From NCBI GenBank assembly GCA_963783375.1, contig CAWANH010000028.1, forward strand, positions 1,088,001-1,152,000: DNA of 64,000 nucleotides, given 5' to 3'. This stretch comes from Candidatus Eiseniibacteriota bacterium (GTDB lineage Bacteria; Eisenbacteria; RBG-16-71-46; JABDJR01). Position 1 is the first letter of the stretch; every line of letters starts with the position of its first letter. Below are positions 25,502-58,594 of the stretch, in pieces. The position numbers and the translations under genes are program-made. The notes under the pieces were generated by a model. That model was given only the letters and a program-made list of their open reading frames with translations, was not told the origin of the DNA and made no database searches.

Positions 25502-25578
25502 GGGGTCGTAGTTCAGCTGGTTAGAACGCCGGCCTGTCACGCCGGAGGTCGCGAGTTCGAATCTCGTCGGCCCCGCCA
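25502..25578 (+). tRNA. tRNA-Asp (GTC)
   Basis: 77 nt; acceptor stem GGGGTCG/CGGCCCC, anticodon loop CTGTCAC, GTTCGAAT T-loop, encoded CCA. Confidence 0.98.
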
Positions 25579-29013: not shown

Positions 29014-29871
29014 ATGAAGCGTCCTCTGATCATCATTTTCGGTGTCCTGGCCGTGGGCACCGCCCTCGCTTCGCCCTACTACGCCCTCCCCCTGGCCGGC
29101 CGGGTCCGTAGCCCCTTCCACCCCTGGCTCCGCCCCTCGGGCTACGTGGGGCAGTCCCTGGGCATCCTGGCCTTCCTGCTCTTTGCCTTCCTCTGGCTCT
29201 ATCCGATCCGGAAGCGCTTTCGCCGGCTGGCGTTCACCGGCACCATCCCCAGGTGGCTCAAGGTGCACGTGGTGGCGGGGCTGGTCGTTCCCTTCGTGGT
29301 GGCGATCCACGCGGGATGGCGCTTCAACGGGCTGGCCGGTCTGGCCTTCGCGGCCATGGTCATCGTGTGGTTGAGCGGCATCGTCGGACGCTACATCTAC
29401 GTTCGCATCCCCCGTGGGAAGTCCGGCCTCTCCCTCAGCGCGGAGGAGATCGGCGCCCACCGGGAGAGCCTGGTCGGGCGGATCTCCGCGGCGACCCGCC
29501 TCACCCCGGATCGGGTGCGCGAGCTCCTGGCCGTGGACAGCGGCTCCTACCGGGGCCTCGGGCTGGCGGGCACCTTGCGCCGCATGGTGGCCGACGATCT
29601 CACCCGGCGTCGCGCCGTCCGCACCCTTCGCCGTGAGCTGGCCAAGGGCTCGGGCGGCGGCCCCCAACTGGATCCCTCCACCCTGGGCGAGGTCCTCCGT
29701 TGCGTGCGGCAGGAGATCGCCCTCGGCCAGCAGATCCGCCTCCTCGAAGGCACCCAGCGCATCTTTCGGTTCTGGCACGCCGCCCACAAGCCGGTGGCGG
29801 TGACCGCGCTCCTGGCGGTGCTGATTCACGTCGCGGTGGTCGTGGCGGTGGGCAGCACCTGGTTCCGATAG
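29014..29871 (+). CDS. His-rich polytopic membrane protein, cytochrome b / ferric-reductase-like TM domain
   Basis: TM His residues in 'WLKVHVVAG', 'AIHAG', 'FWHAAHKP' and 'LIHV'; first gene of the cytochrome operon. Confidence 0.75.
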   Translation: MKRPLIIIFGVLAVGTALASPYYALPLAGRVRSPFHPWLRPSGYVGQSLGILAFLLFAFLWLYPIRKRFRRLAFTGTIPRWLKVHVVAGLVVPFVVAIHAGWRFNGLAGLAFAAMVIVWLSGIVGRYIYVRIPRGKSGLSLSAEEIGAHRESLVGRISAATRLTPDRVRELLAVDSGSYRGLGLAGTLRRMVADDLTRRRAVRTLRRELAKGSGGGPQLDPSTLGEVLRCVRQEIALGQQIRLLEGTQRIFRFWHAAHKPVAVTALLAVLIHVAVVVAVGSTWFR

Positions 29872-29880
29872 GGAACGACG

Positions 29881-31320
29881 ATGGAAGCACTTCTCACCGC
29901 CGTGGCGTTCCTGGTCGTGACTGCGGCCTCGGTGATCTGGCATCTCCGGCGGACGGGGGTGGCGGCGGGTCCCGCCGCCCCACCGGCCGGGCCCCCGTGC
30001 CCGCGCTGCCACGCCGCGGTGCCCGCCGAGGCCACGTTCTGCCCGGCCTGCGGCGTGCCCCGGCAGATCTTCGAGGTCGTCACCGCGCAGACCGTGGACC
30101 CCTCCGCCCCGAAGTCCAACCGCGGCGTTGACGGGCCTCTCCACGCCCTGGTGCGCGCGGACCGGTGCGTGGGGTGCGGGACCTGCGTGGCCGCCTGCCC
30201 GGAACCGGGAGCGATCGCTCTCAAGGGGAAGGTGGCGGTGGTGGACAAGAACGTCTGCGTGGGCCACGGGGAGTGCGTCCAGGCCTGCCCGGTCGGCGCG
30301 GTCTCCATGGCCGGAGGGGAGGCGGTCCAGCGGGTCGAGGTTCCGGAGGTCGACGCGGGTTTCCAGTCCAACGTGCGCGGTCTCTACATCGTGGGGGAGC
30401 TGGGGGGGCGCGGCCTCATCAAGAACGCGATCAACGAGGGGAAGATCGCCGCCGAGGACGTGGTGCGGGCGCTTCCTCCCGGGGAATCGCGCGCCGACGG
30501 CCGGGACGACGTCCTTGATCTGGTGGTGGTGGGGTCCGGTCCGGCCGGCCTCAGCGCCGGGTTGGAGGCCCACCGCACCGGTCTTCGCTACGCCGTGCTC
30601 GAACAGGGCACCCTGGCCGACACCATCCGCAAGTATCCGCGGCGAAAGCTCCTCCTGGCCGAACCGGTTCGTGTCCCGCTCTACGGCGATCTGTGGGTCT
30701 CGGATGCCTCCAAGGAGACCCTGCTCCAGGTCTGGGAAACCATCATCGCCAACACCGGCCTGAGCGTGCTCACCGAGCACCGCGTGGGGAACGTGCTTCG
30801 CGAGGGCGAACTCTTCCGCGTCACCACCGACCGGGGCGACTTCCTGACCCGGCGCGTGGTGCTCGCCCTCGGCCGTCGCGGCACGCCCCGGCGGCTCGGC
30901 GTTCCCGGCGAGGAGCTGGCCAAGGTGACCTACGACATCGTGGAGATGGAGGTGTTCGCGGGGCGGCGGGTCCTGGTGGTGGGTGGGGGAGACAGCGCGG
31001 TGGAGTCCGCGCTGGGTCTGGCCAACCAGCCGGGGACCGAGGTGTACCTCTCCTACCGGGGCGCTGAGCTTTCCCGCGTCAAGGAACGGAACCTGACGAA
31101 GCTGGACAAGGCGCTGGCCGCGGGCAAGGTGACCATGCTCTACGAAAGCCGGATCGTGGAGATCGGCGAGGGGGAGGTGATCCTGGACGTCGCGGGGGAG
31201 ACACGCCGACTCCCCAACGACCACGTCATCATCCGGATCGGGGGCGATCCCCCGTTCAGGTTTCTCGAGCGCATCGGGGTGCGGTTGGTCCAGAAGGACG
31301 TGCCGCTGGTCTCGGCTTGA
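29881..31320 (+). CDS. Membrane-anchored 2x[4Fe-4S] ferredoxin / FAD-NAD(P)H oxidoreductase (TrxR/YpdA-like)
   Basis: N-terminal TM helix; Zn ribbon; CVGCGTCVAACP and CVGHGECVQACP; GSGPAG; VGGGDSA. Confidence 0.88.
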   Translation: MEALLTAVAFLVVTAASVIWHLRRTGVAAGPAAPPAGPPCPRCHAAVPAEATFCPACGVPRQIFEVVTAQTVDPSAPKSNRGVDGPLHALVRADRCVGCGTCVAACPEPGAIALKGKVAVVDKNVCVGHGECVQACPVGAVSMAGGEAVQRVEVPEVDAGFQSNVRGLYIVGELGGRGLIKNAINEGKIAAEDVVRALPPGESRADGRDDVLDLVVVGSGPAGLSAGLEAHRTGLRYAVLEQGTLADTIRKYPRRKLLLAEPVRVPLYGDLWVSDASKETLLQVWETIIANTGLSVLTEHRVGNVLREGELFRVTTDRGDFLTRRVVLALGRRGTPRRLGVPGEELAKVTYDIVEMEVFAGRRVLVVGGGDSAVESALGLANQPGTEVYLSYRGAELSRVKERNLTKLDKALAAGKVTMLYESRIVEIGEGEVILDVAGETRRLPNDHVIIRIGGDPPFRFLERIGVRLVQKDVPLVSA

Positions 31321-33392
31321 CCGCGGGTCGATCGCGGACGCCCGCCGGTTTCGCGGCGGCCATTACCCTCATGGGGGTCTTGATGCTCCTGGGTTCGACA
31401 GTCCGGGTTTCGGCCCAGATCTCTCCCGGCGACCTCTCCCGGGAGCACCAGGATCTGAGCGGCCCGCTCAACTGCCTGAAGTGCCACGCCGGGAAGTCCG
31501 ACGCGATGGACGCGAACTGCCTCGCCTGTCACGCCGGGATCGCGCAGTTGAAGGAGAAGAACCTCGGGCTCCACTCCCGGACCGGCAAGGACCGGTGCGC
31601 TACCTGCCATCCCGAACATGCGGGCCGGGACTTCAAGCTCGTCGCGTGGGAGGGCGGATCGCCCGAGAAGTTCGACCACGGACGCACCGGCTGGACGCTC
31701 CAGGGCAAGCACGCGACCAAGGTTTGCCGGGATTGCCATCAGGCCAAGTACCGGACCTCACCGGTGACCCGGGTGATGAAACGGAAGGATCTCTCGGGGA
31801 GCTGGTTGGGTCTTGAGACCGCCTGCGCTTCGTGCCACGAGGACCTTCATCGCGGCGCCCTCGGAGGGGACTGCGCCCGGTGCCACGGCTTCGAGGCCTG
31901 GAAGCCGGCCGCCGCCTTCGACCACGCCGCCACCGCCTACCCCCTGACCGGAAAGCACGCGACCCTCGAGTGCGCCAAGTGCCACCTGGCCCCGGGTCTC
32001 GATCTGGCCCGGGACGGGAAGGGCCGGCCCATTCCCCTCTACAAACCGCTTCGCCACGACGAGTGCAGCGCCTGCCACCGCGATCCCCACGAGAACCGGC
32101 TCGGGCCCGCCTGCGGCAAATGCCACGTCACCGAGGGGTTCAAGAAAACGGCCGCGGGGGGGTTCGATCACGGGGTCACCCGGTACCCCCTGGCCGGCCG
32201 CCACGTCGGGCTGGAGTGCGCGAAGTGCCACGATCCGGTGAAGGCGTGGGGCAAGCGCCCGGCCTTTGCCCGCTGCGACGATTGCCACCGGGATCCCCAC
32301 GCCGGTGAGACCCGCCTGGCCGGAAAACCCGCGGATTGCGCGGCCTGCCACGCCGTCTCGGGGTTCCGCCCCTCGACCTACACCGTGGACCGCCATCGCG
32401 AAGCGGCCTACCCCCTGGAGGGAAAGCATCGCGGCGTGGAGTGTCGCGGGTGCCATCTCCTCAAGCCGGCGAAGGTGCCGGCGGAGAAGCTGGGAGCGGC
32501 GGGGATCCTCATGCGCCCCCGCTTCGCCACCTGCCGCGACTGCCACGCCGAAGCGCACGACGGCCAGCTCACCGGCCGCGCCGACGGCGGCGCCTGCCGG
32601 ACCTGCCACGCTCCCTCGGGCTGGAAACCGAGCCTCTTCACCGTATCGGACCACGCGACGCTCAAACTTGCGTTGGAAGGCAGGCACGAGGAGATCGCCT
32701 GCGCCGCGTGCCACGGCCCCCGCCGCCGCGATCTTCCGGTTCTTCCCGGCCCCGACACCACCGGGACCGCCGGCGTGATGTTGGCGTTGGGGAGCGGCGC
32801 GTGCGTGACCTGCCACGTCGACCCCCATTTCGGCCGCTATGATCGCCCCGCCGAGGCCTCGCCGCCGGGCGGTTGCCGCGCCTGCCATGCCGCCTCGACG
32901 TTCCGCCCCGCGACCGTCGGCGTGGAAACCCACCGGGAGTATTCCTTCCCCCTGGAAGGGGCGCATCGCGCGGTGCCGTGCACCGGTTGCCACCGGGAAC
33001 TCATGCGGCCGCCCCTGTCCTCGACCTTGGTCGGCGCGGGGGTGAAGCTCGTCCCCCTCCGGTTCAACCAGCACCGAAGCGCCTGCCGGGATTGCCACGA
33101 CGGGCCCCACGGGACGCAGTTCGCGGTTAGGGCGGACAAGGGGGCCTGCGGGACTTGCCACGGGGTCGACGCCTTCGCTCCCGCGGACCACTTCGACCAT
33201 GACCGGGACACGGCGTTCGGCCTCCGAGGCGCCCACGCGAAGGTGGCCTGCGCCGAATGCCATCCCTCACGGAAAGACGCGGACGGAGTGGAGCGGATCC
33301 GCTACCGCCCTACTCCCACCGAGTGCGAGAGCTGTCACCGGGGCGGTCGGCCCGGGACGGGGTCCCGCCGGAACGGGGGGGGCGGATCATGA
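31317..33392 (+). CDS. Multiheme cytochrome c, 23 CxxCH
   Basis: Signal peptide then 'QISPGDLS..H'; 23 CxxCH counted; repeated 'FDH...PL.G.H' His spacers. Confidence 0.95.
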   Translation: MTAGRSRTPAGFAAAITLMGVLMLLGSTVRVSAQISPGDLSREHQDLSGPLNCLKCHAGKSDAMDANCLACHAGIAQLKEKNLGLHSRTGKDRCATCHPEHAGRDFKLVAWEGGSPEKFDHGRTGWTLQGKHATKVCRDCHQAKYRTSPVTRVMKRKDLSGSWLGLETACASCHEDLHRGALGGDCARCHGFEAWKPAAAFDHAATAYPLTGKHATLECAKCHLAPGLDLARDGKGRPIPLYKPLRHDECSACHRDPHENRLGPACGKCHVTEGFKKTAAGGFDHGVTRYPLAGRHVGLECAKCHDPVKAWGKRPAFARCDDCHRDPHAGETRLAGKPADCAACHAVSGFRPSTYTVDRHREAAYPLEGKHRGVECRGCHLLKPAKVPAEKLGAAGILMRPRFATCRDCHAEAHDGQLTGRADGGACRTCHAPSGWKPSLFTVSDHATLKLALEGRHEEIACAACHGPRRRDLPVLPGPDTTGTAGVMLALGSGACVTCHVDPHFGRYDRPAEASPPGGCRACHAASTFRPATVGVETHREYSFPLEGAHRAVPCTGCHRELMRPPLSSTLVGAGVKLVPLRFNQHRSACRDCHDGPHGTQFAVRADKGACGTCHGVDAFAPADHFDHDRDTAFGLRGAHAKVACAECHPSRKDADGVERIRYRPTPTECESCHRGGRPGTGSRRNGGGGS

Positions 33393-36300
33393 GAGGGTGG
33401 AACGGGTTCCTGGCTCGTCTGTGGTCCCGGCGTCCTGGTTGGCGGCTCATCCGCCCGGGGTTTGTGCTGGTCGGCGTGTTCATCGTCTTCGGGGGAGGGA
33501 TGATCTGGGATGCGGTCGGAGCGGGGGCGGACGATGACGAGCCCAAGTACCCGCACGGGTCGTTCCAGGCGGAGTGCAGCATGTGCCACTCCTCGGAGGG
33601 ATGGAAACCGGCACAGATCGGCAAGCAGTTCAAACACGAGAAATACGGGATGCCTCTCGACGGGGCGCACGCCGAGACGCCGTGCCTGTCCTGTCACCGG
33701 TCCCTGGAATTCGCGGACAGCGGCACGCAGTGCGCCGAGTGCCACCAGGACGTGCACAACAGCGAGTTGGGAACGGAGTGCGCGGATTGCCACACCACCC
33801 GGAGCTTCGGGGATCGATCCCGGATGGAGGACCTCCATCAGCTCACCCGGCTGCCCCTGACCGGCGCGCATGCCACGCTGGACTGCGCGGATTGCCACGT
33901 GTCGCAGGCGAAAGGGAAGGGGACCTTCGCCGGGGTGGCGGCGGAATGCGCGTCGTGCCACCTGGCCCGCTACGAGGCCGTGGAGGATCCTCCCCATGAG
34001 GCAGACCACTTCTCAACGGAATGCTCCCTCTGCCACGGCACGTCGAGCTGGAACGGCGGCGCCTTCGAGGCGGCCGGCCTGACGGAGTTCGATCACGGGG
34101 CGACGCTGTTTCCCCTGACCGGGGCGCACACCCGAACGGAGTGCATGACGTGCCATGGGGGTGGGGTATACCGGGGGTTGAGCACGGAGTGCGCAACCTG
34201 CCACCAGTCCGACTACGACGGGACCACGGACCCGGATCATCAGGCCGCCGGGTATCCCTTGGAGTGTGCGAATTGTCACGGCACTGAGAGCTGGTCGGGA
34301 GCGGACTTCAATCACGATGAGACCGGGTTCCCGCTCACCGGGGCTCATGTGGTCCAGCAGTGCCAGAGCTGTCACGGGGGTGGGGTGTACCAGGGGCTGG
34401 GCACGAAGTGCGCGACCTGCCACCAGACCGACTACAATGGGACGACCGAACCGGTGCATAGCGCGGCCGGGTTCCCGGTCACCTGCCAGGACTGCCACAA
34501 CACGACCAACTGGGACGGCGCGACGTTCGACCACAGCACCCAGACCCAGTTCCCCCTCACCGGCGCGCACGTCGCCCAGCAGTGCCAGAGCTGCCACGGG
34601 GGTGGGGTGTACCAGGGGCTGGGCACGGAGTGCGCAACGTGCCACCAGGCGGACTACGATGGGACGACCGAGCCGGTTCACAGCGCGGCCGGGTTCCCGG
34701 TGACCTGCCAGGACTGCCACAACACGACGAACTGGGACGGGGCGACGTTCGATCACGACAGCCAGACCCAGTTCCCGTTGACCGGGGCGCACATCACCCA
34801 GCAGTGCCAGAGCTGTCACGGGGGTGGGGTGTACCAGGGGCTGGGCACGGAGTGCGCAACGTGCCACCAGGCGGACTACGATGGGACGACCGAGCCGGTG
34901 CACAGCGCGGCCGGGTTCCCGGTGACGTGCCAGAACTGCCACAACACGACCAGCTGGGACGGGGCGGTTTTCGATCACGATAGCCAGACCCAGTTCCCGC
35001 TCACCGGCGCGCACGTCGCCCAGCAGTGCCAGAGCTGCCACGGGGGTGGGGTGTACCAGGGGCTGGGCACGGAGTGCGCAACCTGCCACCAGGCGGACTA
35101 CGATGGGACGACCGAGCCGGTTCACAGCGCGGCCGGGTTCCCGGTGACCTGCCAGGACTGCCACAACACGACGAACTGGGACGGGGCGACGTTCGATCAC
35201 GACAGCCAGACCCAGTTCCCGTTGACCGGGGCGCACATCACCCAGCAGTGCCAGAGCTGTCACGGGGGTGGGGTGTACCAGGGGCTGGGCACGGAGTGCG
35301 CAACCTGCCACCAGGCGGACTACGATGGGACGACCGAGCCGGTGCACAGCGCGGCCGGGTTCCCGGTGACGTGCCAGAACTGCCACAACACGACCAGCTG
35401 GGACGGGGCGACGTTCGATCACGACAGCCAGACCCAGTTCCCGTTCACCGGGGCGCACATCGCCCAGCAGTGCCAGAGCTGCCACGGGGGTGGGGTGTAC
35501 CAGGGGCTGGGCACGGAGTGCGCAACCTGCCACCAGGCGGACTACGATGGGACGACCGAGCCGGTTCACAGCGCGGCCGGGTTCCCGGTGACCTGCCAGG
35601 ACTGCCACAACACGACGAACTGGGACGGGGCGACGTTCGATCACGACAGCCAGACCCAGTTCCCCCTCACCGGGGCGCATATCGCGGCTCAATGCCAGAG
35701 CTGCCACGGCGGCGGGGTGTACCAGGGGCTGGGCACGGAGTGCGCGACCTGCCACCAGGCCGACTACGACGGGACCACGGATCCACCTCACGACCCGGCC
35801 GGGTTCCCGGTGACCTGCCAGGACTGCCACAACACGACGAACTGGGACGGGGCGACGTTCGATCACGACAGCCAGACCCAGTTCCCGTTGACCGGGGCGC
35901 ACATCACCCAGCAGTGCCAGAGCTGTCACGGGGGTGGGGTGTACCAGGGGCTGGGCACGGAGTGCGCAACGTGCCACCAGGCGGACTACGATGGGACGAC
36001 CGAGCCGGTGCACAGCGCGGCCGGGTTCCCGGTGACGTGCCAGAACTGCCACAACACGACCAGCTGGGACGGGGCGGTTTTCGATCACGATAGCCAGACC
36101 CAGTTCCCGCTCACCGGCGCGCACGTCGCCCAGCAGTGCCAGAGCTGCCACGGGGGTGGGGTGTACCAGGGGCTGGGCACGGAGTGCGCAACCTGCCACC
36201 AGGCGGACTACGATGGGACGACCGAGCCGGTTCACAGCGCGGCCGGGTTCCCGGTGACCTGCCAGGACTGCCACAACACGACGAACTGGGACGGGGCGAC

Positions 36301-39193
36301 GTTCGATCACGACAGCCAGACCCAGTTCCCCCTCACCGGGGCGCATATCGCGGCTCAATGCCAGAGCTGCCACGGCGGCGGGGTGTACCAGGGGCTGGGC
36401 ACGGAGTGCGCAACCTGCCACCAGACCGACTACGACGGGACGACCGACCCGCCCCACGATCCGGCCGGGTTCCCGGTGACCTGCCAGGACTGCCACAACA
36501 CGACGAACTGGGACGGGGCGACGTTCGACCACGACACCCAGACCCAGTTCCCCCTCACCGGGGCGCACGTCGCCCAGCAGTGCCAGAGCTGCCACGGGGG
36601 TGGGGTGTACCAGGGGCTGGGCACGGAGTGCGCGACCTGCCACCAGTCCGACTACGACGGGACGACCGAGCCGGTTCACAGCGCGGCCGGGTTCCCGGTG
36701 ACCTGCCAGGACTGCCACAACACCACGACCTGGGACGGGGCGACGTTCGACCACAGCACCCAGACCCAGTTCCCCCTCACCGGCGCGCATGTCGCCCAGC
36801 AGTGCCAGAGCTGCCACGGGGGTGGGGTGTACCAGGGGCTGGGCACGGAGTGCGCAACCTGCCACCAGACCGACTACGACGGGACGACCGAACCGGTGCA
36901 CAGCGCGGCCGGGTTCCCGGTGACCTGCCAGGACTGTCACAACACCTCGGCCTGGGACGGCGCGACGTTCGACCACGATACCCAGACCCAGTTCCCGTTG
37001 ACCGGGGCGCACATCACCCAGCAGTGCCAGAGCTGTCACGGGGGTGGGGTGTACCAGGGGCTGAGCACCGAGTGCGCGACCTGCCACCAGACCGACTACG
37101 ACGGGACCACGGACCCGCCCCACGACCCGGCCGGGTTCCCGGTGACCTGCCAGGACTGCCACAACACGACGAACTGGGACGGGGCGACGTTCGACCACAG
37201 CACCCAGACCCAGTTCCCCCTCACCGGGGCGCACATCACCCAGCAGTGCCAGAGCTGCCACGGGGGTGGGGTGTACCAGGGGCTGGGCACCGAGTGCGCG
37301 ACCTGCCACCAGTCCGACTACGACGGGACCACGGACCCGCCTCACGACCCGGCCGGGTTCCCGGTGACCTGCCAGACTGCCACAACACGACGAACTGGGA
37401 CGGGGCGGACTTCGATCACGATACCCAGACCCAGTTCCCGTTGACCGGGGCGCACATCACCCAGCAGTGCCAGAGCTGCCACGGCGGCGGGGTGTACCAG
37501 GGGCTGGGCACGGAGTGCGCGACCTGCCACCAGACCGACTACGACGGGACGACCGACCCGGCCCACGATCCGGCTGGGTTCCCGGTGACCTGCCAGTCGT
37601 GCCACAACACGACGAACTGGGACGGGGCGACGTTCGACCACAGCACCCAGACCCAGTTCCCCCTCACCGGCGCGCACGTCGCCCAGCAGTGCCAGAGCTG
37701 CCACGGGGGTGGGGTGTACCAGGGGCTGGGCACGGAGTGCGCGACCTGCCACCAGTCCGACTACGACGGGACGACCGAGCCGGTTCACAGCGCGGCCGGG
37801 TTCCCGGTGACCTGTCAGGACTGCCACAACACGACGACCTGGGACGGGGCGGTTTTCGATCACGACAGCCAGACCCAGTTCCCGCTGACCGGGGCGCACA
37901 TCACCCAGCAGTGCCAGAGCTGCCACGGCGGCGGGGTGTACCAGGGGCTGGGCACGGAGTGCGCGACCTGCCACCAGGCCGACTACGACGGGACCACGGA
38001 CCCGGCCCACGACCCGGCCGGGTTCCCGGTGACCTGCCAGGACTGCCACAACACGACGAACTGGGACGGCGCGACGTTCGACCACAGCACCCAGACCCAG
38101 TTCCCGCTCACCGGGGCGCATCATCGCGGTCCAATGCCTGAGCTGCCACGGCGGCGGGGTGTACCAGGGGCTGGGCACCGAGTGCGCAACCTGCCACCAG
38201 ACCGACTACGACGGGACCACCGACCCGGTGCACAGCGCGGCCGGGTTCCCGGTGACCTGCCAGGACTGCCACAACACGACGACCTGGGACGGCGCGACGT
38301 TCGACCACAGCACCCAGACCCAGTTCCCGCTCACCGGGGCGCATCTCGCGGTCCAATGTCTGAGTTGCCACGGCGGCGGGGTGTACCAGGGGCTGGGCAC
38401 CGAGTGCGCAACCTGCCACCAGGCCGACTACGACGGGACGACCGAACCGGTCCACAGCGCGGCCGGGTTCCCGGTGACCTGCCAGAACTGCCACAACACC
38501 ACGACCTGGGACGGCGCGACGTTCGACCACAGCACCCAGACCCAGTTCCCGCTCACCGGGGCGCATCTCGCGGTCCAATGTCTGAGCTGCCACGGCGGCG
38601 GGGTGTACCAGGGGCTGGGCACCGAGTGCGCGACCTGCCACCAGACCGACTACAATGGGACGACCGAACCGGTGCATAGCGCGGCCGGGTTCCCGGTGAC
38701 CTGCCAGAACTGTCACAACACCTCGGCCTGGGACGGCGCGACGTTCGACCACAGCACCCAGACCCAGTTCCCCCTCACCGGCGCGCACGTCGCCCAGCAG
38801 TGCCAGAGTTGCCACGGGGGTGGGGTGTACCAGGGGCTGGGCACGGAGTGCGCGACCTGCCACCAGTCCGACTACGACGGGACGACCGAGCCGGTTCACA
38901 GCGCGGCCGGGTTCCCGGTCACCTGCCAGAACTGTCACAACACGACGACCTGGGACGGGGCCACCTTCGACCATGACGCATCGTTCTTCCCGATCTACTC
39001 GGGGAGTCATAGTGGACGATGGAGCGATTGCACCGACTGTCACACCAACAACACGAATTACACCGATTTCACCTGCCTGAGCTGCCATCCGCACGATGAC
39101 AAATCCAAGACCGATGGGGACCATCGGGGCAGATCCGGATACCAATACGACAGCCAGGCTTGTTATTCATGCCATCCCCGGGGGAGCCACTAA
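33389..39193 (+). CDS. Giant tandem-repeat multiheme cytochrome c (~1934 aa, 76 CxxCH after correcting a -1 at ~37375 and a +1 at ~38122)
   Basis: ATG at 33389 overlaps the upstream stop; ORF pieces 33257..37444, 36136..38679 (middle part) and 38159..39193 join into one repeat protein; stop overlaps the next ATG (TAATG). Confidence 0.9.
34325..38975 (+). repeat. Coding tandem repeat, 21 x 222 bp (74 aa, 3 CxxCH per unit)
   Basis: First Cys codon of each unit recurs at 34361+222n up to 38801 (offset by -1 between the two indels). Confidence 0.95.
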
Positions 39194-40821
39194 TGACTCG
39201 GTGGGCGAGCGCGGCGCTTACCGTGATCGCGACCGTGCTGGCCTGCCTGGGGGCGCCGTCCCCCGCCCCGGCTGCCGTCGACAACACCTCCATGGCCGAT
39301 AGCAGTGCCCACGTCACCTACGTCACCGGCGACTTGATCTATGTGGACGCGGGACGGCAGAGCGGCCTGGGGGAGGGTCTGGAGCTACAGGTCGAGCGGG
39401 ATGGGAAGGCGGTGGCCACGCTCAAGGTGGAGCACCTCTCCTCCCATCAGGCCTCGTGCTCCGTGATCGGAGATCCGGTCGAGGTGAAGATCGGGGATGT
39501 CGTCCGGTTCCGACCGGTTCCTGCCAAGACGACCGGCGAGAATCCGTCGCCGGCGGCGAGCCGGGCAAATCCCGGCCGGACCGGCTCGGTATCGACGATG
39601 CAGGCGCTCCGGGCCCTGGGTTTCCGGGGACGGGTCGGGGTCCGGTACCTCACCCTGATGGATCAGACCGGGTCCGGCGCCGGCTTCTCCCAGCCCGCGC
39701 TGGACCTCCGGGTGTCCGGGACCCGGATCAACGGGAGCGACCTGGACCTCTTGGTCGATGCCCGGGCGCGCCGTACCTACCGGACGGACGCGAACGGGGG
39801 GCAATCCAACGACGGACGGACCCGCTTCTATCGGCTGAGCCTCTCCCGCCGGGCCGAGGGCTCACCCCTGCGGCTGTCCCTGGGTCGGCAGGTATCCCCC
39901 GACCTGGCCTCGGTGAGCCTCTTCGACGGCCTCCTGGGGGAATACGCAAGACGATCCGTGGCCTTCGGGGTCTTCACCGGTACCCAACCCGATCCCAAGA
40001 CCTACGGCGCCTCGAGCGAAGTGTTCGAATATGGGGGCTATGCCCGGGTGCAGGGCGCGCAGGCCGGAGTGGGCCGTTGGGCGCTCACCGGAGGAGCCAT
40101 CCAATCGCTGGTGAGGGGAGCGGTGAACCGGGACTATCTCTTCCTACGCGGCCGGTACATGAACCGCCGGATGTTCGGGTACCTGACCCAGGAGATCGAC
40201 ATCAATCGCGGCTGGAAGGCGAAGGCCGGCGAACCCCTGCTGACCCCGACCAGCACCTACCTGAACCTCCGCTATCAGCCGGCACCGGCATTGAGTTTCA
40301 CCGCCGGCTTCGACAACCGCCGGAACGTCCGGCTCTATCGGGACCGCGATACGCCGGAGACGGTGTTCGACGACAGCTATCGCCGAGGGCTCCGGGGCGG
40401 GGTGAGCGTGCGCTTTCTGGACCGGTTCCGGGTTGGGGGAGACGCCGGGATCCGCGGCGGGGGCGGGAGCGGCGATTCGAAATCCTTCACCTTCACCACC
40501 CGCATCTCCCGGCTGTCTCCGCTGGCCGTCGATCTGAGCACCCGGCACACGCGCTACACCGGCCCACTCGCCGACGGCTGGCTGCACACGGTTCGGGCGG
40601 GCGGTTCGATCGGCAGGCGGAACCGACTGGAACTGCACGCGGGGGGGAAGCGGGAAGACCGGTTCACCGGACCCGAGACCTCGGCGCAGACGACGTGGCT
40701 CGGTGCCGACCTGGACCTCGGCATCGTGACCGGCTGGTACCTCCTTCTCTCGGGAGAGTCCACCCGGGGAGACGTCGAAAAGAACGACCAGGTCTACACC
40801 AGCTTGTCCTACCGGTTCTGA
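39193..40821 (+). CDS. Predicted outer-membrane beta-barrel protein with N-terminal FlgT-C-like domain
   Basis: Signal peptide; 'IYVDAGRQSGL..G'; alternating amphipathic strands; C-terminal beta-signal 'YTSLSYRF'. Confidence 0.8.
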   Translation: MTRWASAALTVIATVLACLGAPSPAPAAVDNTSMADSSAHVTYVTGDLIYVDAGRQSGLGEGLELQVERDGKAVATLKVEHLSSHQASCSVIGDPVEVKIGDVVRFRPVPAKTTGENPSPAASRANPGRTGSVSTMQALRALGFRGRVGVRYLTLMDQTGSGAGFSQPALDLRVSGTRINGSDLDLLVDARARRTYRTDANGGQSNDGRTRFYRLSLSRRAEGSPLRLSLGRQVSPDLASVSLFDGLLGEYARRSVAFGVFTGTQPDPKTYGASSEVFEYGGYARVQGAQAGVGRWALTGGAIQSLVRGAVNRDYLFLRGRYMNRRMFGYLTQEIDINRGWKAKAGEPLLTPTSTYLNLRYQPAPALSFTAGFDNRRNVRLYRDRDTPETVFDDSYRRGLRGGVSVRFLDRFRVGGDAGIRGGGGSGDSKSFTFTTRISRLSPLAVDLSTRHTRYTGPLADGWLHTVRAGGSIGRRNRLELHAGGKREDRFTGPETSAQTTWLGADLDLGIVTGWYLLLSGESTRGDVEKNDQVYTSLSYRF

Positions 40822-40845: not shown

Positions 40846-41337
40846 TCAGCGCACCTCGATGAGGACGGTTTCCCCGTCCACGCGCACCGGGTAGGGATGA
40901 ATGGGCCCGCCGGCGGGGCCGTCGAGCACCCTCCCCTCGTAATCGAAGAGGGACTTTCCCACGCTGCAGCACTGGAGGACCGGACCGTTCACGCAAGGGT
41001 CCAGCTTTCGCCCCCCGTGCGCGCAGCGGTTCTCGAATGCGTGATACCCGCCGTCGATCCCGTGGATGAGGAGCACCGGCGCCGGGAGCATCGGGCCCTC
41101 GATCCGGACCGCCCCGGCCCTCCGGTTCAGCTCCGAAATCCGGGTCACGTCCACCCGGATCGTGCCGTCGGCGAAGGCCCAGGAATCGGCATCGGCCGGG
41201 GGCTCGGTGGCGGGGATGCCGAAGATGCGCTGGAAGAGGTTTCTCCGGACGCAACTGATGGCGACGGGAGAGGGCGGATCGGCATTCGGCCCCTTGTCCG
41301 TCGCGCGTCGCTCAGCGATCAGGGGTTCCTTCATCAT
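40846..41337 (-). CDS. Rieske-fold [2Fe-2S] protein with atypical second ligand box
   Basis: 'NRCAHGG...QCCSVGKSLFDYEG.V..GPA...YPV'. Confidence 0.8.
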   Translation of the reverse strand: MMKEPLIAERRATDKGPNADPPSPVAISCVRRNLFQRIFGIPATEPPADADSWAFADGTIRVDVTRISELNRRAGAVRIEGPMLPAPVLLIHGIDGGYHAFENRCAHGGRKLDPCVNGPVLQCCSVGKSLFDYEGRVLDGPAGGPIHPYPVRVDGETVLIEVR

Positions 41338-41572
41338 CGTCCCATCCTCCGTGCCATGGGGGTTTCGGGGGTGGCGGACCATGACCGTCAACCGCGGGAC
41401 GCCGGTGATCCGGGCGTGAACCCGCGCGTCGAAGGTACTCCACCACCGACGCCGGCGCAAAACGAATTCGATAACAAAGTTGTTTTGCGATCGTGTTTGT
41501 CCGATGAGCTGATCCAGGATCACCGACCGCGCCGCCGCCGAACAACCGGTCCCCGGGGAAACCGCGCGGCGA

Positions 41573-43129
41573 TCAGGAGGTGGGAAACACAACCCGACAG
41601 AGGCGGCTTCCCGACGCCCTCCGGATCAGGGTGAGGGCGGCGCCATCCTCCTCCAGACGGCGAATCAGCCATCGGGGCCGGGTCTCGTAGGTCCAGAAGC
41701 TCCGGTGGGCAAGGATGAAGGGCCGGTAGTCGGGGACGTCCAGGTCGACCACTTCCCCGACGATGCTGAGATTTCGCTCCGCAGTGTCGTCACCGGTGTA
41801 CTGAAGCGCCGCCTCGGGATCGTTGAGGTAGACCAAGCGATCGGCGATCGCCCGGGGCAGGTAGTGGCGGGCCTGGATGAACGCGTGCGGGTCGCCGACG
41901 GCGACCGGCGTTGGAGTCTCGGGGAGTGTGAGCAGAAGCGGATGCATGGCCAGCACGGCCGCCCGGGGGTCCTTGGGCGCCGCGACCGCCCTTCCCGCAT
42001 CCTTCAGCACCGCGAGGGAGATCATGAGGAGCAAGAGGACCGCCGTGGTCGTGCCTCCGCGCGAGAGCCGGCGGACCGCGATGGTGAAGAACACCGACAG
42101 TCCGATGATTGCCGGGATCCCGTACCGGAAGGTGTAGGTGCCGGTTTCGGCCATGGCGGTGAGTACCGCCGCCGCCGGGATGAGGACGAATCCACCGAGC
42201 GCGGCCAGCTCATGCGGGTTAAACCCGCCGCGCTTCGTTCGGGAGGGGATCGGCGGGTCGGAGCGGGTGAGCCGCAGGACGCCCACCACGATCGTCACCG
42301 CGACGAGGGTGACCAGGGCGGGACGGAGGAGCATTCCGTAGGTGCCGAGGATCTGCTCGGGGTGCGGGGGGGCCCAGGAGTGGGCGAAGAGCCGGGTCCG
42401 AACCGCCCGGATCACCGGAAGGAGCGGGATGAACGCGGCGAAGGGAAGAACCAGGGCCGCCGCGATCGCGCCGTCGAGCCGGCGCCGCTCCATCGTCCGC
42501 GCGAGTTCGCCCGACCCCAGGGCCACGATCGCGAAGACCGCGTAGTAGTGATTGGCTATGCCCAGAAAGAGGCCCAGGAAGAGCCCGGCCAGGCCGAGGC
42601 GCCGATGCCTGCCGGTGGCCGCTTCCTGCCAGGACAGGAGGGCGAGCCCGGCCAGGCCGAGCAGGATGCCATAGGGACGGGCCTCGTAGGCGTAGGGGTA
42701 GGCGCCGGTCTTGAGCAGGAAGAGAACCGTGATGAACCCGTAGATCGTTCCCAGGCGGCGGCGCGTGAAGGCGAAGAGGGCGAGCAGAAACGTGCCGAAG
42801 CCGAGCCATGCCGGGACCCGGACCGCGACCTCGCCGTCGCCGAGGGTCGCGTGAACGGCGTGGAGCAGGAACGCATGGAGCGGGGGGGCTCCGTCGACCC
42901 CGGCCAGAGACGCGCGCCACACCGCGGAGATGGAGGGGAGGCCGGCCACATAGAGAGCAATGATCTCGTCGTTCCAGAAGGGCTTCGCCGCCGCCCGAAG
43001 GACGGTGGTCAGCGTGTAGAGGAGGAGAAGCGCCGCCACCAGGGCCCCGGCGTGCCGCTCGACGAAGTCCGCCACCCGGTCCGCGGCGCGATTCAGGGTT
43101 CCGGTCCGACCGGGCGGGATTGCGTGCAT
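41573..43129 (-). CDS. GT-C fold (family 39-like) membrane glycosyltransferase
   Basis: 'FWNDE', 'PPLH', 'EARPYG', 'HYY'; many TM helices. Confidence 0.85.
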   Translation of the reverse strand: MHAIPPGRTGTLNRAADRVADFVERHAGALVAALLLLYTLTTVLRAAAKPFWNDEIIALYVAGLPSISAVWRASLAGVDGAPPLHAFLLHAVHATLGDGEVAVRVPAWLGFGTFLLALFAFTRRRLGTIYGFITVLFLLKTGAYPYAYEARPYGILLGLAGLALLSWQEAATGRHRRLGLAGLFLGLFLGIANHYYAVFAIVALGSGELARTMERRRLDGAIAAALVLPFAAFIPLLPVIRAVRTRLFAHSWAPPHPEQILGTYGMLLRPALVTLVAVTIVVGVLRLTRSDPPIPSRTKRGGFNPHELAALGGFVLIPAAAVLTAMAETGTYTFRYGIPAIIGLSVFFTIAVRRLSRGGTTTAVLLLLMISLAVLKDAGRAVAAPKDPRAAVLAMHPLLLTLPETPTPVAVGDPHAFIQARHYLPRAIADRLVYLNDPEAALQYTGDDTAERNLSIVGEVVDLDVPDYRPFILAHRSFWTYETRPRWLIRRLEEDGAALTLIRRASGSRLCRVVFPTS

Positions 43130-57270: not shown

Positions 57271-57448
57271 AAGGGTACTGTGAATTTTGACCCAAATCGA
57301 ATAGATAAAACAGTTATCCATGAACGGGATGCAGGATGGGAGCCCGGGCCAACTAGAATTACCGGAGCAACTTGGGTTCGCAACGAGCTCCAGCCCCCGG
57401 GTCTGATCGGGGACGGGTGAGGGGGGTTCGTCACCAGGAGGTTCCGGA

Positions 57449-58594
57449 ATGGCCCGCCGCTCCCGCCTTGTCCTCTCCGTGTTCGCCTTGTCGCTCGTCT
57501 TCTGCGCCGCATCCGCCCTTGCCGATGACGGGCCGGGCGCGTTCTCCACCTCTTCCATTCACTCCGGGGGGCGCATGCGCTCCACCCACGGGGTTTTCTC
57601 CATCGCCGGCGGCGCCTATCCCGACGCCGAGCCCCGCTATCACAACGGGAGCGAGCTGGTGTGTGGGGACTGCCACGTCATGCACGCTTCCCAGACCCAT
57701 CCCTACGATCCGGCGGGCGCGAGGCCGGGGGAGGAGGTCCCCTACGCCGGAGGGCCCAACCCGAAGCTCCTGAAGGTCCCCGACCCTCTCGATCTCTGTC
57801 TCAACTGCCACGACGGCCGCACCTTCGCCCCCGACGTTCTCGGGGCGGACGTGAACGGCCTCGTCCAGCGCTCGGCGGGACACTTCGACGAGCCGGAGCT
57901 GGCCAACCCCCGCGGACACGACCTGGGCCGGGGCCTCCCCGACGCCGAGGGATTCGGCCTCTGCACGCGGTGCCACTTCTCGAGCGGCGAGGACGCCAAG
58001 GTCACCTGCATCGACTGCCACAACCCGCACGGGAACGGGGTGGCCCGGAACCTCCAGTGGGCGAGCGATCCCACGTCCACCCCGGACCTGGGGCTCTTCG
58101 TGAACCCGGGGGCGAGCGGGCTGGCCCGCTACGAGGCTTCGAACGTTTCCTTCGGGACCCTGAACACCGACCAGCTCCGCGAGGTCACCAACATCTGCCT
58201 CGACTGCCACCACATCTTCTCGGGGGAATCCTACATCGACCCCGACGGCAACGGGTTCCACAACCGCCATCCCACCTACGACAGCGAGCGCGGGTCGATC
58301 AACTCCATCAGCCAGGGGGACGCCGACGGGCGGACCAATTCCCCCCACTGGCTGGGAGGGACCGGGTCGGGGTTCATGGGGACGCCGCGGCTCCGCTTCG
58401 TGGCCTCCGGGGCCACCGACTTCGCCTCCGGGACGGTCGTGGACGCGGACAACGACGGGGTGTTCTGTTTGAGCTGCCACACCGCCCATGGAAGCGATCA
58501 GGCCTTCGCCCTGACCTGGACGCTCCAGGACGGATACGGCGCCCCCGGCTGCGACCAGTGTCACTACGTGGCCCAGGTGGACGCGGCCCCCTAG
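57449..58594 (+). CDS. OmcS-like multiheme cytochrome c, 7 CxxCH
   Basis: Signal peptide; 'YHNGSELVCGDCHVMH', 'CLNCH', 'GH', 'CIDCHNPHG', 'RHP', 'VFCLSCHTAH', terminal 'CDQCH'. Confidence 0.85.
   Translation: MARRSRLVLSVFALSLVFCAASALADDGPGAFSTSSIHSGGRMRSTHGVFSIAGGAYPDAEPRYHNGSELVCGDCHVMHASQTHPYDPAGARPGEEVPYAGGPNPKLLKVPDPLDLCLNCHDGRTFAPDVLGADVNGLVQRSAGHFDEPELANPRGHDLGRGLPDAEGFGLCTRCHFSSGEDAKVTCIDCHNPHGNGVARNLQWASDPTSTPDLGLFVNPGASGLARYEASNVSFGTLNTDQLREVTNICLDCHHIFSGESYIDPDGNGFHNRHPTYDSERGSINSISQGDADGRTNSPHWLGGTGSGFMGTPRLRFVASGATDFASGTVVDADNDGVFCLSCHTAHGSDQAFALTWTLQDGYGAPGCDQCHYVAQVDAAP

What the first reader, a model, noticed from the sequence alone, without database searches (positions are those of the whole stretch)
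33389..39193. Single-chain 76-heme cytochrome built from 21 near-identical tri-heme modules
Seen: 10 N-terminal CxxCH, 21 units x 3 CxxCH and 3 C-terminal CxxCH give 76 in ~1934 aa, about 25 aa per heme. Each 74-aa unit has exactly three extra His (FDH, GAH, PxH), matching all-bis-His ligation. Established: the Geobacter 12-heme polymer GSU1996 is about 12 nm long. Inference: an extended chain here could reach several tens of nm, longer than a typical periplasm, making it a covalent nanowire or a large electron capacitor rather than a polymerised filament. The His order (H,H,CxxCH,CxxCH,H,CxxCH) differs from PpcA-type c7.
Basis: partly seen in the sequence, partly recalled or inferred. Interest (0 to 1): 0.9.

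Follow-up and report, generated by a model that had tools for sequence, protein, structure and literature searches.

The report
Giant variable-length single-chain cytochrome wire
Apart from two likely sequencing errors, this gene encodes one protein with about 70-76 heme-binding sites in 22 repeats; it is a large but not record-sized member of a widespread, untested family that likely carries electrons across the bacterial cell envelope.

Summary
Observation holds: 76 CxxCH (7 N-terminal, 22 repeats x 3, 3 C-terminal) in 1,934 aa, each repeat with three extra His. As assembled, the gene has two one-base indels, probably long-read errors. A second assembly seems two repeats shorter, so 70-76 hemes. 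The repeats are real diverged copies (pN/pS 0.22).

It is not unique. 7 of the 120 best long homologs have 76 or more motifs, a same-class genome has 85, and papers report 85, 112 and 113. It lies in a conserved five-gene operon: cytochrome-b-like membrane protein, FeS/FAD oxidoreductase, 23-heme cytochrome, this protein, beta-barrel. That matches the predicted, untested PCC3 conduit (He et al. 2017), which already proposed the 'molecular wire' idea; sequence homology to PCC3 could not be tested.

The partner stays at 17-23 hemes while this subunit varies from 10 to 85, and natural partner-plus-array fusions exist, suggesting a head-to-tail wire with a tunable distal length. Length and location were not measured; no solved fold matched. 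This scan noted the family twice before on other DNA.

The parts
29014..29871 (+). Inner-membrane protein, 285 aa from the likely start, five hydrophobic helices, with SGxxG and two W-x3-H-x13-H motifs (predicted di-heme b, ferric-reductase-like)
   Evidence: Motifs conserved in 22 homologs; hydropathy; near-identical database proteins are 285 aa; no Pfam or NCBIfam match
29881..31320 (+). Membrane-anchored 4Fe-4S dicluster plus FAD/NAD(P)H pyridine nucleotide-disulphide oxidoreductase, 479 aa
   Evidence: Pfam Pyr_redox_3 E 2.7e-41, Fer4_10, zinc ribbon; N-terminal hydrophobic helix; present in 16 of 18 loci found with the membrane protein
31317..33392 (+). 23-heme cytochrome c, 691 aa, N-terminal signal-like segment, net basic; fixed-length partner
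   Evidence: 23 CxxCH; 17-23 motifs in relatives; start overlaps the previous stop
33389..39193 (+). Giant cytochrome gene, 1,934 aa and 76 CxxCH when read across two one-base indels
33389..34087 (+). Signal-like hydrophobic segment (residues 25-43, no lipobox Cys) and N-terminal head with 7 CxxCH and 8 extra His
34088..38965 (+). Array of 22 tri-heme units (219, 219, then 222 bp); T/G/Q/A/D-rich, about 7.8 acidic and no basic residues per unit in units 3-14
37374..37377 (+). One base missing in unit 15; probable long-read error
   Evidence: indirect support only (see full report)
38119..38124 (+). One extra base in unit 19; probable long-read error
   Evidence: the second assembly reads this unit in frame (P0122)
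38966..39193 (+). C-terminal cap with 3 CxxCH; its stop overlaps the barrel start
   Evidence: matched in 67 of 201 genomes of the phylum, own genome included
39193..40821 (+). Predicted outer-membrane beta-barrel, 542 aa: signal-like segment, small N-terminal domain, about 18 or more amphipathic strands, terminal Phe
   Evidence: crude strand count; 109 of 129 long homologs end in Phe; 871 representatives at E <= 1e-10; nearest Pfam-bearing Atlas clusters include barrels at 0.85-0.86, a lead only

Best explanation
The gene encodes, across two likely sequencing errors, a single-chain cytochrome of 70-76 heme-binding sites that likely forms the distal, length-variable segment of a PCC3-like electron conduit through the cell envelope. 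Electrons would pass from cytoplasmic NAD(P)H through the FeS/FAD oxidoreductase and the di-heme-b membrane protein into the 17-23-heme partner, which would span the periplasm. They would then run head-to-tail along this chain of bis-His hemes, which would dock in or pass through the beta-barrel and reach outside. Its length is set by gain and loss of a 73-74-aa tri-heme unit, and this lineage has recently expanded or homogenised the array. Shown: motifs, repeats, gene order and coupling, conservation, length series, fusions. Inferred: ligation, extended shape, location, direction of flow and the acceptor.
For: Operon: starts and stops overlap at three junctions. The barrel lies directly downstream in 13 of 14 same-phylum loci cut around the cytochrome. 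Membrane protein, partner, large cytochrome and barrel are all present in 10 of 18 loci found with the membrane protein; the other 8 reach a contig or locus end first. The cultured Emticicia oligotrophica plasmid has the same five genes plus ccsA, with 23 and 40 hemes. The membrane-protein motifs are those He et al. give for PCC3. The partner is nearly fixed (17-23 hemes) while this subunit ranges 10-85, and 138 of 157 complete-looking homologs have 3n+1 motifs: whole units are added, and the varying part is not held to one periplasmic width. 3 of 240 homologs fuse the partner's head and repeats to the array and cap in one chain, which supports a series connection. The partner's head is homologous to a small cytochrome encoded next to an FeS protein and an 'iron reductase' on a Bradyrhizobium plasmid stretch with no annotated porin, placing that end at the inner membrane. 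pN/pS is 0.22 between 18 units. 19 of 20 in-frame window units form one clade (95/94) apart from the same-genus ortholog's units. The genome has cytochrome c maturation genes.
Against: No member has been tested; PCC3 itself is called functionally unverified. Export is unexplained: there is no lipobox (7 of 154 homologs have a lipobox-like motif) and no secretin passes the GspD cut-off. The fusions fit a wholly periplasmic chain equally well. The cap is no more conserved than a repeat unit (0.58 against 0.58-0.62), so conservation does not mark it as a docking module. One same-phylum locus (L014, 49 hemes) has no barrel or membrane protein in 18 kb. Shape was not measured: pLDDT 58.6 for four units, pTM 0.42 for a 22-heme homolog. 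The second assembly also has a one-base loss in unit 15, about 30 bases upstream of the window's (P0084), so that break is not directly shown to be an error.
Confidence: 0.55

Rival explanations
1. The chain stays in the periplasm, coiled or lying along the membrane, as an electron store (capacitor) between the membrane module and the barrel, with at most its C-terminal cap in the barrel.
For: Sec-type N-terminus without lipobox; no clear type II secretin; fused partner-plus-array proteins; periplasmic heme polymers such as GSU1996 are proposed capacitors; the same idea is offered in print for very large cytochromes.
Against: Free variation from 10 to 85 hemes beside a fixed-length partner; a 99-heme series far exceeds the 17-nm periplasm quoted in PMC11492766; the PCC3 papers predict the repeat-rich subunit to be extracellular.
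Confidence: 0.27
2. In this organism the gene is really broken or shorter: a true frameshift in unit 15 leaves a 51-heme protein without the cap, or the assembly overstates the array.
For: Both assemblies lose a base in unit 15, though at different places; units 4-5 equal units 9-10 exactly; the second assembly looks two units shorter; no short-read contig meets the 31-base bridging rule at the first break.
Against: The second assembly has its own breaks, including the same kind of one-base loss at the same codon of another unit, and reads unit 19 in frame. All 8 listed contig pieces that cross the first break carry the extra base (26 of 111 pieces listed). The same-genus ortholog is intact with 61 hemes. 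Downstream units and the cap are conserved and coupled to the barrel. Units differ mostly at silent sites, so at most about two units can be artefact.
Confidence: 0.1
3. The system is not respiratory: it is an NAD(P)H-driven ferric-reductase or oxidase-like machine for assimilatory metal reduction, detoxification or redox signalling at the surface, and the long chain only extends reach.
For: The membrane protein has ferric-reductase-type His motifs and its partner is an NAD(P)H flavoprotein; a shorter three-gene version is annotated 'iron reductase' on a plasmid; the operon sits on a plasmid in Emticicia.
Against: About 99 hemes per conduit is a large cost for an assimilatory task (inference); the genome is rich in multiheme cytochromes, 36 frames with 3 or more motifs, as in respiring electroactive bacteria.
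Confidence: 0.15

Closest known systems
PCC3 porin-cytochrome cluster (He et al. 2017, PMC5566968; modelled in PMC9900912)
   Same: Gene set and order: membrane protein with five helices, SGxxG and two WX3HX13H; periplasmic cytochrome of about 21 hemes; larger repeat-rich, Thr/Ala/Gly-rich cytochrome at 22-39 aa per heme; porin. Large cytochrome variable in size, up to 85 motifs; 'molecular wire' proposed; predicted long and mostly linear.
   Different: Described only in Proteobacteria in those papers; here inferred Ca. Eisenbacteria, with relatives in Gemmatimonadota, Acidobacteriota and Bacteroidota. An FeS/FAD oxidoreductase gene is part of this operon and is not among the four PCC3 genes. 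Sequence homology to reference PCC3 proteins was not testable, and the paper says the same membrane-protein motifs occur in non-homologous families.
GSU1996 (PDB 3OV0) and other c7-domain polymers of Geobacter
   Same: One polypeptide built of tri-heme modules with hemes in a line; proposed wire or capacitor (PMC10138318).
   Different: 12 hemes against 70-76; each GSU1996 domain has one His-Met heme, whereas units 2-22 here have no Met; no PDB hit to 3OV0 or PpcA by sequence or profile; not shown to be encoded with a porin.
Very large predicted multiheme cytochromes: 113-motif S-layer fusion of Methanoperedenaceae (PMC7082337), 112-motif protein of a Paludibaculum MAG and many Saprospiraceae proteins (PMC11495043), up to 116 in peat metagenomes (10.64898/2026.05.27.727921)
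   Same: Single-chain proteins with as many or more heme motifs; wire or capacitor roles suggested.
   Different: The archaeal one is an S-layer fusion. Whether the Paludibaculum, Saprospiraceae and peat proteins belong to this repeat family was not checked; their sequences lie in supplements I did not see.
Polymerised cytochrome filaments OmcS, OmcE, OmcZ
   Same: Long heme chains proposed for electron transfer beyond the cell.
   Different: They are non-covalent polymers of 4-8-heme subunits reaching micrometres; this is one chain whose length is fixed by the gene; no sequence or fold match.

Membership tests
PCC3 | Inner-membrane protein of about 300 aa with five helices, SGxxG on helix 4, WX3HX13H on helices 3 and 5 | tested here: met
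   against PMC5566968 section 17; the motifs are also shared with PCC4, so they are not family-specific
PCC3 | Periplasmic multiheme cytochrome of about 21-27 hemes | tested here: met
   23 CxxCH with a signal-like N-terminus; 17-23 in relatives; location is predicted only
PCC3 | Second, larger cytochrome: repeat-built, rich in small residues, 22-39 aa per heme, variable heme number | tested here: met
   25.4 aa per heme; Thr 14.5%, Gly 12%, Ala 8.6%; 10-85 hemes in relatives
PCC3 | That cytochrome is extracellular | not testable with these tools
   no localisation predictor or experiment; no lipobox, secretins below the GspD cut-off
PCC3 | Adjacent outer-membrane beta-barrel (porin) | tested here: met
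   alternating strands, terminal Phe, signal-like segment; pattern-level evidence, the protein was not folded
PCC3 | Conserved order membrane protein - periplasmic cytochrome - large cytochrome - porin | tested here: met
   window and relatives, with an oxidoreductase gene inserted or adjacent
PCC3 | Sequence homology to reference PCC3 proteins (Sideroxydans lithotrophicus ES-1, Leptothrix cholodnii, Agromonas oligotrophica S58) | not testable with these tools
   the paper's sequence figure and table are images; no proteobacterial PCC3 locus came up
PCC3 | Cytochrome binds inside the barrel | not tested
c7 / GSU1996-type tri-heme polymers | Tandem tri-heme domains in one chain | tested here: met
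   22 units of three CxxCH
c7 / GSU1996-type tri-heme polymers | One His-Met heme per domain (GSU1996) | tested here: not met
   no Met in units 2-22, three spare His in each; GSU1996 ligation from PMC10138318
c7 / GSU1996-type tri-heme polymers | Homology to the c7 domain over its length | tested here: inconclusive
   PF14522 and TIGR04257 score above cut-off only as sums over repeats; best stretches start at profile position 13 of 67 and 24 of 75, and no TIGR04257 stretch passes alone; no PpcA or 3OV0 hit in PDB searches; no fold match. The PpcA His order is recalled, not from a call
OmcS/OmcE/OmcZ filaments | Small 4-8-heme subunits that polymerise | tested here: not met
   single 70-76-motif chain; no sequence hit to these structures

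The most novel reading that the evidence does not exclude
The operon makes a self-threading, genetically length-tuned nanowire. A thin bis-His heme rod with an unsolved 73-74-aa repeat fold is matured in the periplasm and pushed C-terminus first through its own barrel. It joins cytoplasmic NAD(P)H to acceptors up to about 70 nm outside in one covalent chain, and lineages retune its reach by unequal crossing-over of a 222-bp unit. This would be a third kind of bacterial wire beside Mtr-type conduits and polymerised filaments, spread through soil phyla not known as electroactive.
Probability: 0.2. Interest if true: 0.8.

Novelty: new variant of a known kind. Interest (0 to 1): 0.42.

Why it matters
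The largest single-chain multiheme structure solved has 16 hemes (PMC11492766), so how chains of 70 or more hemes fold, mature and leave the cell is open. This family is common (67 of 201 genomes of the phylum), has no solved relative, and varies in length by whole units. The window's units are the most homogeneous of the 110 proteins compared (mean identity 0.87-0.93 against a median of 0.64). One or a few units are therefore an unusually clean module for measuring rise per unit, heme spacing and conductance, and for building wires of chosen length. A cultured strain with the operon (Emticicia oligotrophica DSM 17448) makes function testable. The gene itself is not a record and the wire idea is in print, which limits the surprise.

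Tried and rejected
Assembly expansion of the whole array: rejected. Units are diverged with pN/pS 0.22 and the longest exact repeat is 535 bp, and 41 short-read contigs of run X1 lie on a single 201-bp unit, nearly all at 90-100% likeness. Summed depth on that unit was far above the flanks, but the tool says it is no copy number, so I did not use it as a count.

Record size: rejected. c7-type identity: not supported.

Fold searches with both models found nothing in the PDB (Foldseek; VIA-align). This shows neither a new fold nor a different one. Rise per unit could not be measured because no coordinates were returned.

Barrel plus C-terminal cap complex prediction: tool not available, no verdict. 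Cap as a specially conserved docking module: not supported. Barrel fused to a cytochrome: 0 of 150 barrel homologs carry CxxCH. His invariance in alignment A1 is circular, since rows were picked by a His pattern; I rely on A2 instead. Strong acidity is lineage-specific, not a family trait (12 of 224 homologs as acidic; median -1 per unit).

No RNA holder listed. No promoter-like site and no + strand terminator found. Rfam gave only a tRNA. Reaching named PCC3 proteins failed.

Papers opened without bearing on the claim, passages only: PMC13013709, PMC8258643, PMC6344600, PMC5317091, 10.1101/2025.05.29.656830, PMC11475568. No description of this five-gene operon or repeat family turned up in nine searches; the library lacks most subscription journals.
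Full report
OBSERVATION. The region 33389-39193 holds 66 CxxCH in one frame, 9 in a second frame between two one-base indels and one motif broken by the first indel: 76 in all. It divides into a 233-aa N-terminal part (signal-like segment, 7 motifs, 8 spare His), 22 tandem units (73, 73, then 74 aa; each 3 motifs and exactly 3 spare His) and a 75-aa cap (3 motifs, 5 spare His), 1,934 aa in total. Shuffles give at most 4 motifs where 51 are seen.

IS THE GENE INTACT AND IS THE ARRAY REAL? The genome has two contigs of 1.7-2.0 Mb, which suggests long reads. Outside the array it is clean: a 95%-identical relative aligns over 6.8 kb with 2 gap openings. A second assembly, on a 2.39-Mb contig, holds fragments of the same gene; whether it is independent of the first is unknown. 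It reads unit 19 in frame and breaks elsewhere, once by the same kind of one-base loss at the same codon of a later unit (P0122). That points to systematic read errors in a repeat. Against this, it also loses a base in unit 15, about 30 bases before the window's break (P0084). In short-read contigs of four runs, all 8 listed pieces that cross the first break carry the extra base. However, only 26 of 111 pieces were listed, none has 31 bases on both sides, and they may come from other units, so this is weak. The same-genus ortholog is one intact frame with 61 motifs. I put the chance that the gene is truly broken at about 0.1. The array is not an assembly echo: units 3-22 differ by 0-38 bases, mostly at third positions, and pN/pS is 0.22 over 18 units (crude count). 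Units 4-5 and 9-10 are exact copies (535 bp), and P0084 has one mixed-looking unit where the window has 9-11 (mapped by eye), so the count is 70-76.

FAMILY. The C-terminal 344 aa hit 5,532 of 7,997 scored candidates of 603-2,000 aa and 6,275 of 8,000 of 189-602 aa at E <= 0.001. These totals may include unrelated multiheme proteins; I inspected only the best 240. Of the best 120 long ones, 7 have 76 or more motifs and 57 have 60 or more; that search stopped at 2,000 aa. A same-class genome has 85 motifs in a 2,071-aa frame. 138 of 157 complete-looking proteins have 3n+1 motifs, and 1,294 of 1,581 units have exactly six His. In 65 full-length 22-heme homologs chosen by heme count, the three spare His of every internal unit are invariant, the best evidence for bis-His ligation. 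The cap was found in 67 of 201 genomes of the phylum. The closest named locus is titled Ca. Eisenbacteria, so that taxon is inferred for the window. What sets this copy apart is homogeneity: mean unit identity 0.87-0.93 against a median of 0.64 in 110 proteins. 19 of 20 in-frame units form one clade (95/94, bootstrap not fully settled) apart from the same-genus ortholog (broken units 15 and 19 left out). The array was expanded or homogenised recently.

CONTEXT. Upstream on the same strand lie a five-helix membrane protein with SGxxG and two WX3HX13H motifs, a membrane-anchored 4Fe-4S/FAD oxidoreductase and a 23-heme cytochrome; downstream is a predicted beta-barrel. Three junctions overlap stop and start. 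The barrel follows the cytochrome in 13 of 14 same-phylum loci. Membrane protein, partner, large cytochrome and barrel are all present in 10 of 18 loci found with the membrane protein, the rest ending early, and the oxidoreductase is present in 16 of 18. Named carriers include Gemmatimonadota, Acidobacteriota, Ca. Binatia and a plasmid of the cultured Emticicia oligotrophica (23 and 40 hemes, with ccsA). The partner keeps 17-23 hemes while the large subunit ranges 10-85. Three of 240 homologs carry the partner's head and repeats fused to the array and cap. The partner's head matches a small cytochrome that sits with an FeS protein and an 'iron reductase' on a Bradyrhizobium plasmid (E 8e-13).

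STRUCTURE. There is no close solved relative by sequence or profile. Four window units folded at pLDDT 58.6; a full 22-heme homolog folded at pLDDT 80.5, pTM 0.42, as short helices and loops repeating with the unit. Neither matched the PDB, which proves nothing about novelty. No coordinates were returned, so rise per unit was not measured. At GSU1996's 1 nm per heme (reference title) a straight chain would be about 70-76 nm; that is an extrapolation. The barrel-cap complex test was not available.

MECHANISM. Most likely (0.55) this is the distal segment of a series wire: NAD(P)H, flavoprotein, di-heme b, partner across the periplasm, this chain at or through the barrel, then an outside acceptor. 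The fixed partner and freely varying distal chain favour an outside reach; the fusions favour head-to-tail connection. Export is the weak point: no lipobox and no clear type II secretin. The rivals are a periplasmic capacitor (0.27), a non-respiratory reductase (0.15) and a broken gene (0.1); the last two can overlap with the others. Direction and acceptor are inferred from the flavoprotein alone.

COMPARISON WITH WHAT IS KNOWN. He et al. 2017 (PMC5566968; I read passages and sections 15, 17, 18; the supplementary figure and table gave only legends) describe PCC3: the same four-gene layout, the same membrane-protein motifs, repeat-built cytochromes at 22-39 aa per heme, up to 85 motifs, proposed as molecular wires. 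PMC9900912 (passages) models them as long and mostly linear and mentions capacitor use. PMC7399161 (passages) notes heme-number variation by domain gain and loss. 10.1101/2025.02.27.639646 (passages) calls PCC3 expressed but untested. Larger counts are in PMC7082337 (113, passages), PMC11495043 (112, section 10) and 10.64898/2026.05.27.727921 (abstract and sections 8, 9, 12). The supplements of these three were not seen and may contain this family. So this works like PCC3 and meets every feature I could test, but membership by homology is untested, and the oxidoreductase gene and the phyla differ. It is not a GSU1996-type c7 polymer: that protein has a His-Met heme per domain (PMC10138318, passages), and units 2-22 here have no Met. 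The PpcA His order is recalled only.

EARLIER NOTES. After I had stated my reading, the scan's notes showed the same family in two other genomes: a 55-heme member and a five-gene PCC3-like set with flavoprotein input. They agree with my reading and are not independent support.

VERDICT. A real, near-upper-tail member of a widespread, untested family in a PCC3-like operon. New variant of a known kind; interest 0.42. Its value is as a clean, testable module, not as a record.

Noticed in passing
G000:C29:1459100-1466169 (outside the window): A 42-motif cytochrome of a different repeat type (many CxxCHxPH) lies next to a 10-motif and a 6-motif cytochrome, with a 540-aa frame between them that may be a barrel; possibly a second conduit.
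   Followed up: no
whole genome G000: 36 stop-to-stop frames carry 3 or more CxxCH, four of them from this operon.
   Followed up: no
window 57407-58591 (+): A separate 7-motif cytochrome with a signal-like N-terminus.
   Followed up: no
proteins P0042, P0090, P0091: Natural fusions of the partner's head and repeats with the tri-heme array and cap, 59-74 motifs in one chain; their neighbourhoods were not seen.
   Followed up: partly
window 34526-37189: Units 3-14 have about 7.8 acidic residues each and no Lys or Arg, while the 23-heme partner is net basic; only 12 of 224 homologs are as acidic.
   Followed up: partly
L038:12198-23996 (Emticicia oligotrophica plasmid pEMTOL02): The whole operon with ccsA sits on a 100-kb plasmid of a cultured strain, with a Rieske gene and two other barrel genes upstream.
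   Followed up: partly
L039:7451-10723 (Bradyrhizobium sp. BTAi1 plasmid): A three-gene short version (FeS protein, 'iron reductase', small cytochrome) with no annotated porin in the stretch; similar small cytochromes occur on 46 other plasmid records.
   Followed up: partly
barrel homologs P0402, P0406, P0426 and others: Some barrels have long N-terminal extensions or a duplicated N-terminal domain; an AMIN-bearing Atlas cluster scores 0.89, hinting at a periplasmic anchor. Not tested with Pfam.
   Followed up: no
window 25502-25575 and 40846-41592: A tRNA gene 3.4 kb upstream and a convergent Rieske-domain gene just downstream flank the operon.
   Followed up: no
L014 (G024:C23:92000-110000): A 49-motif family member with no membrane protein or barrel match in the 18-kb stretch.
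   Followed up: no
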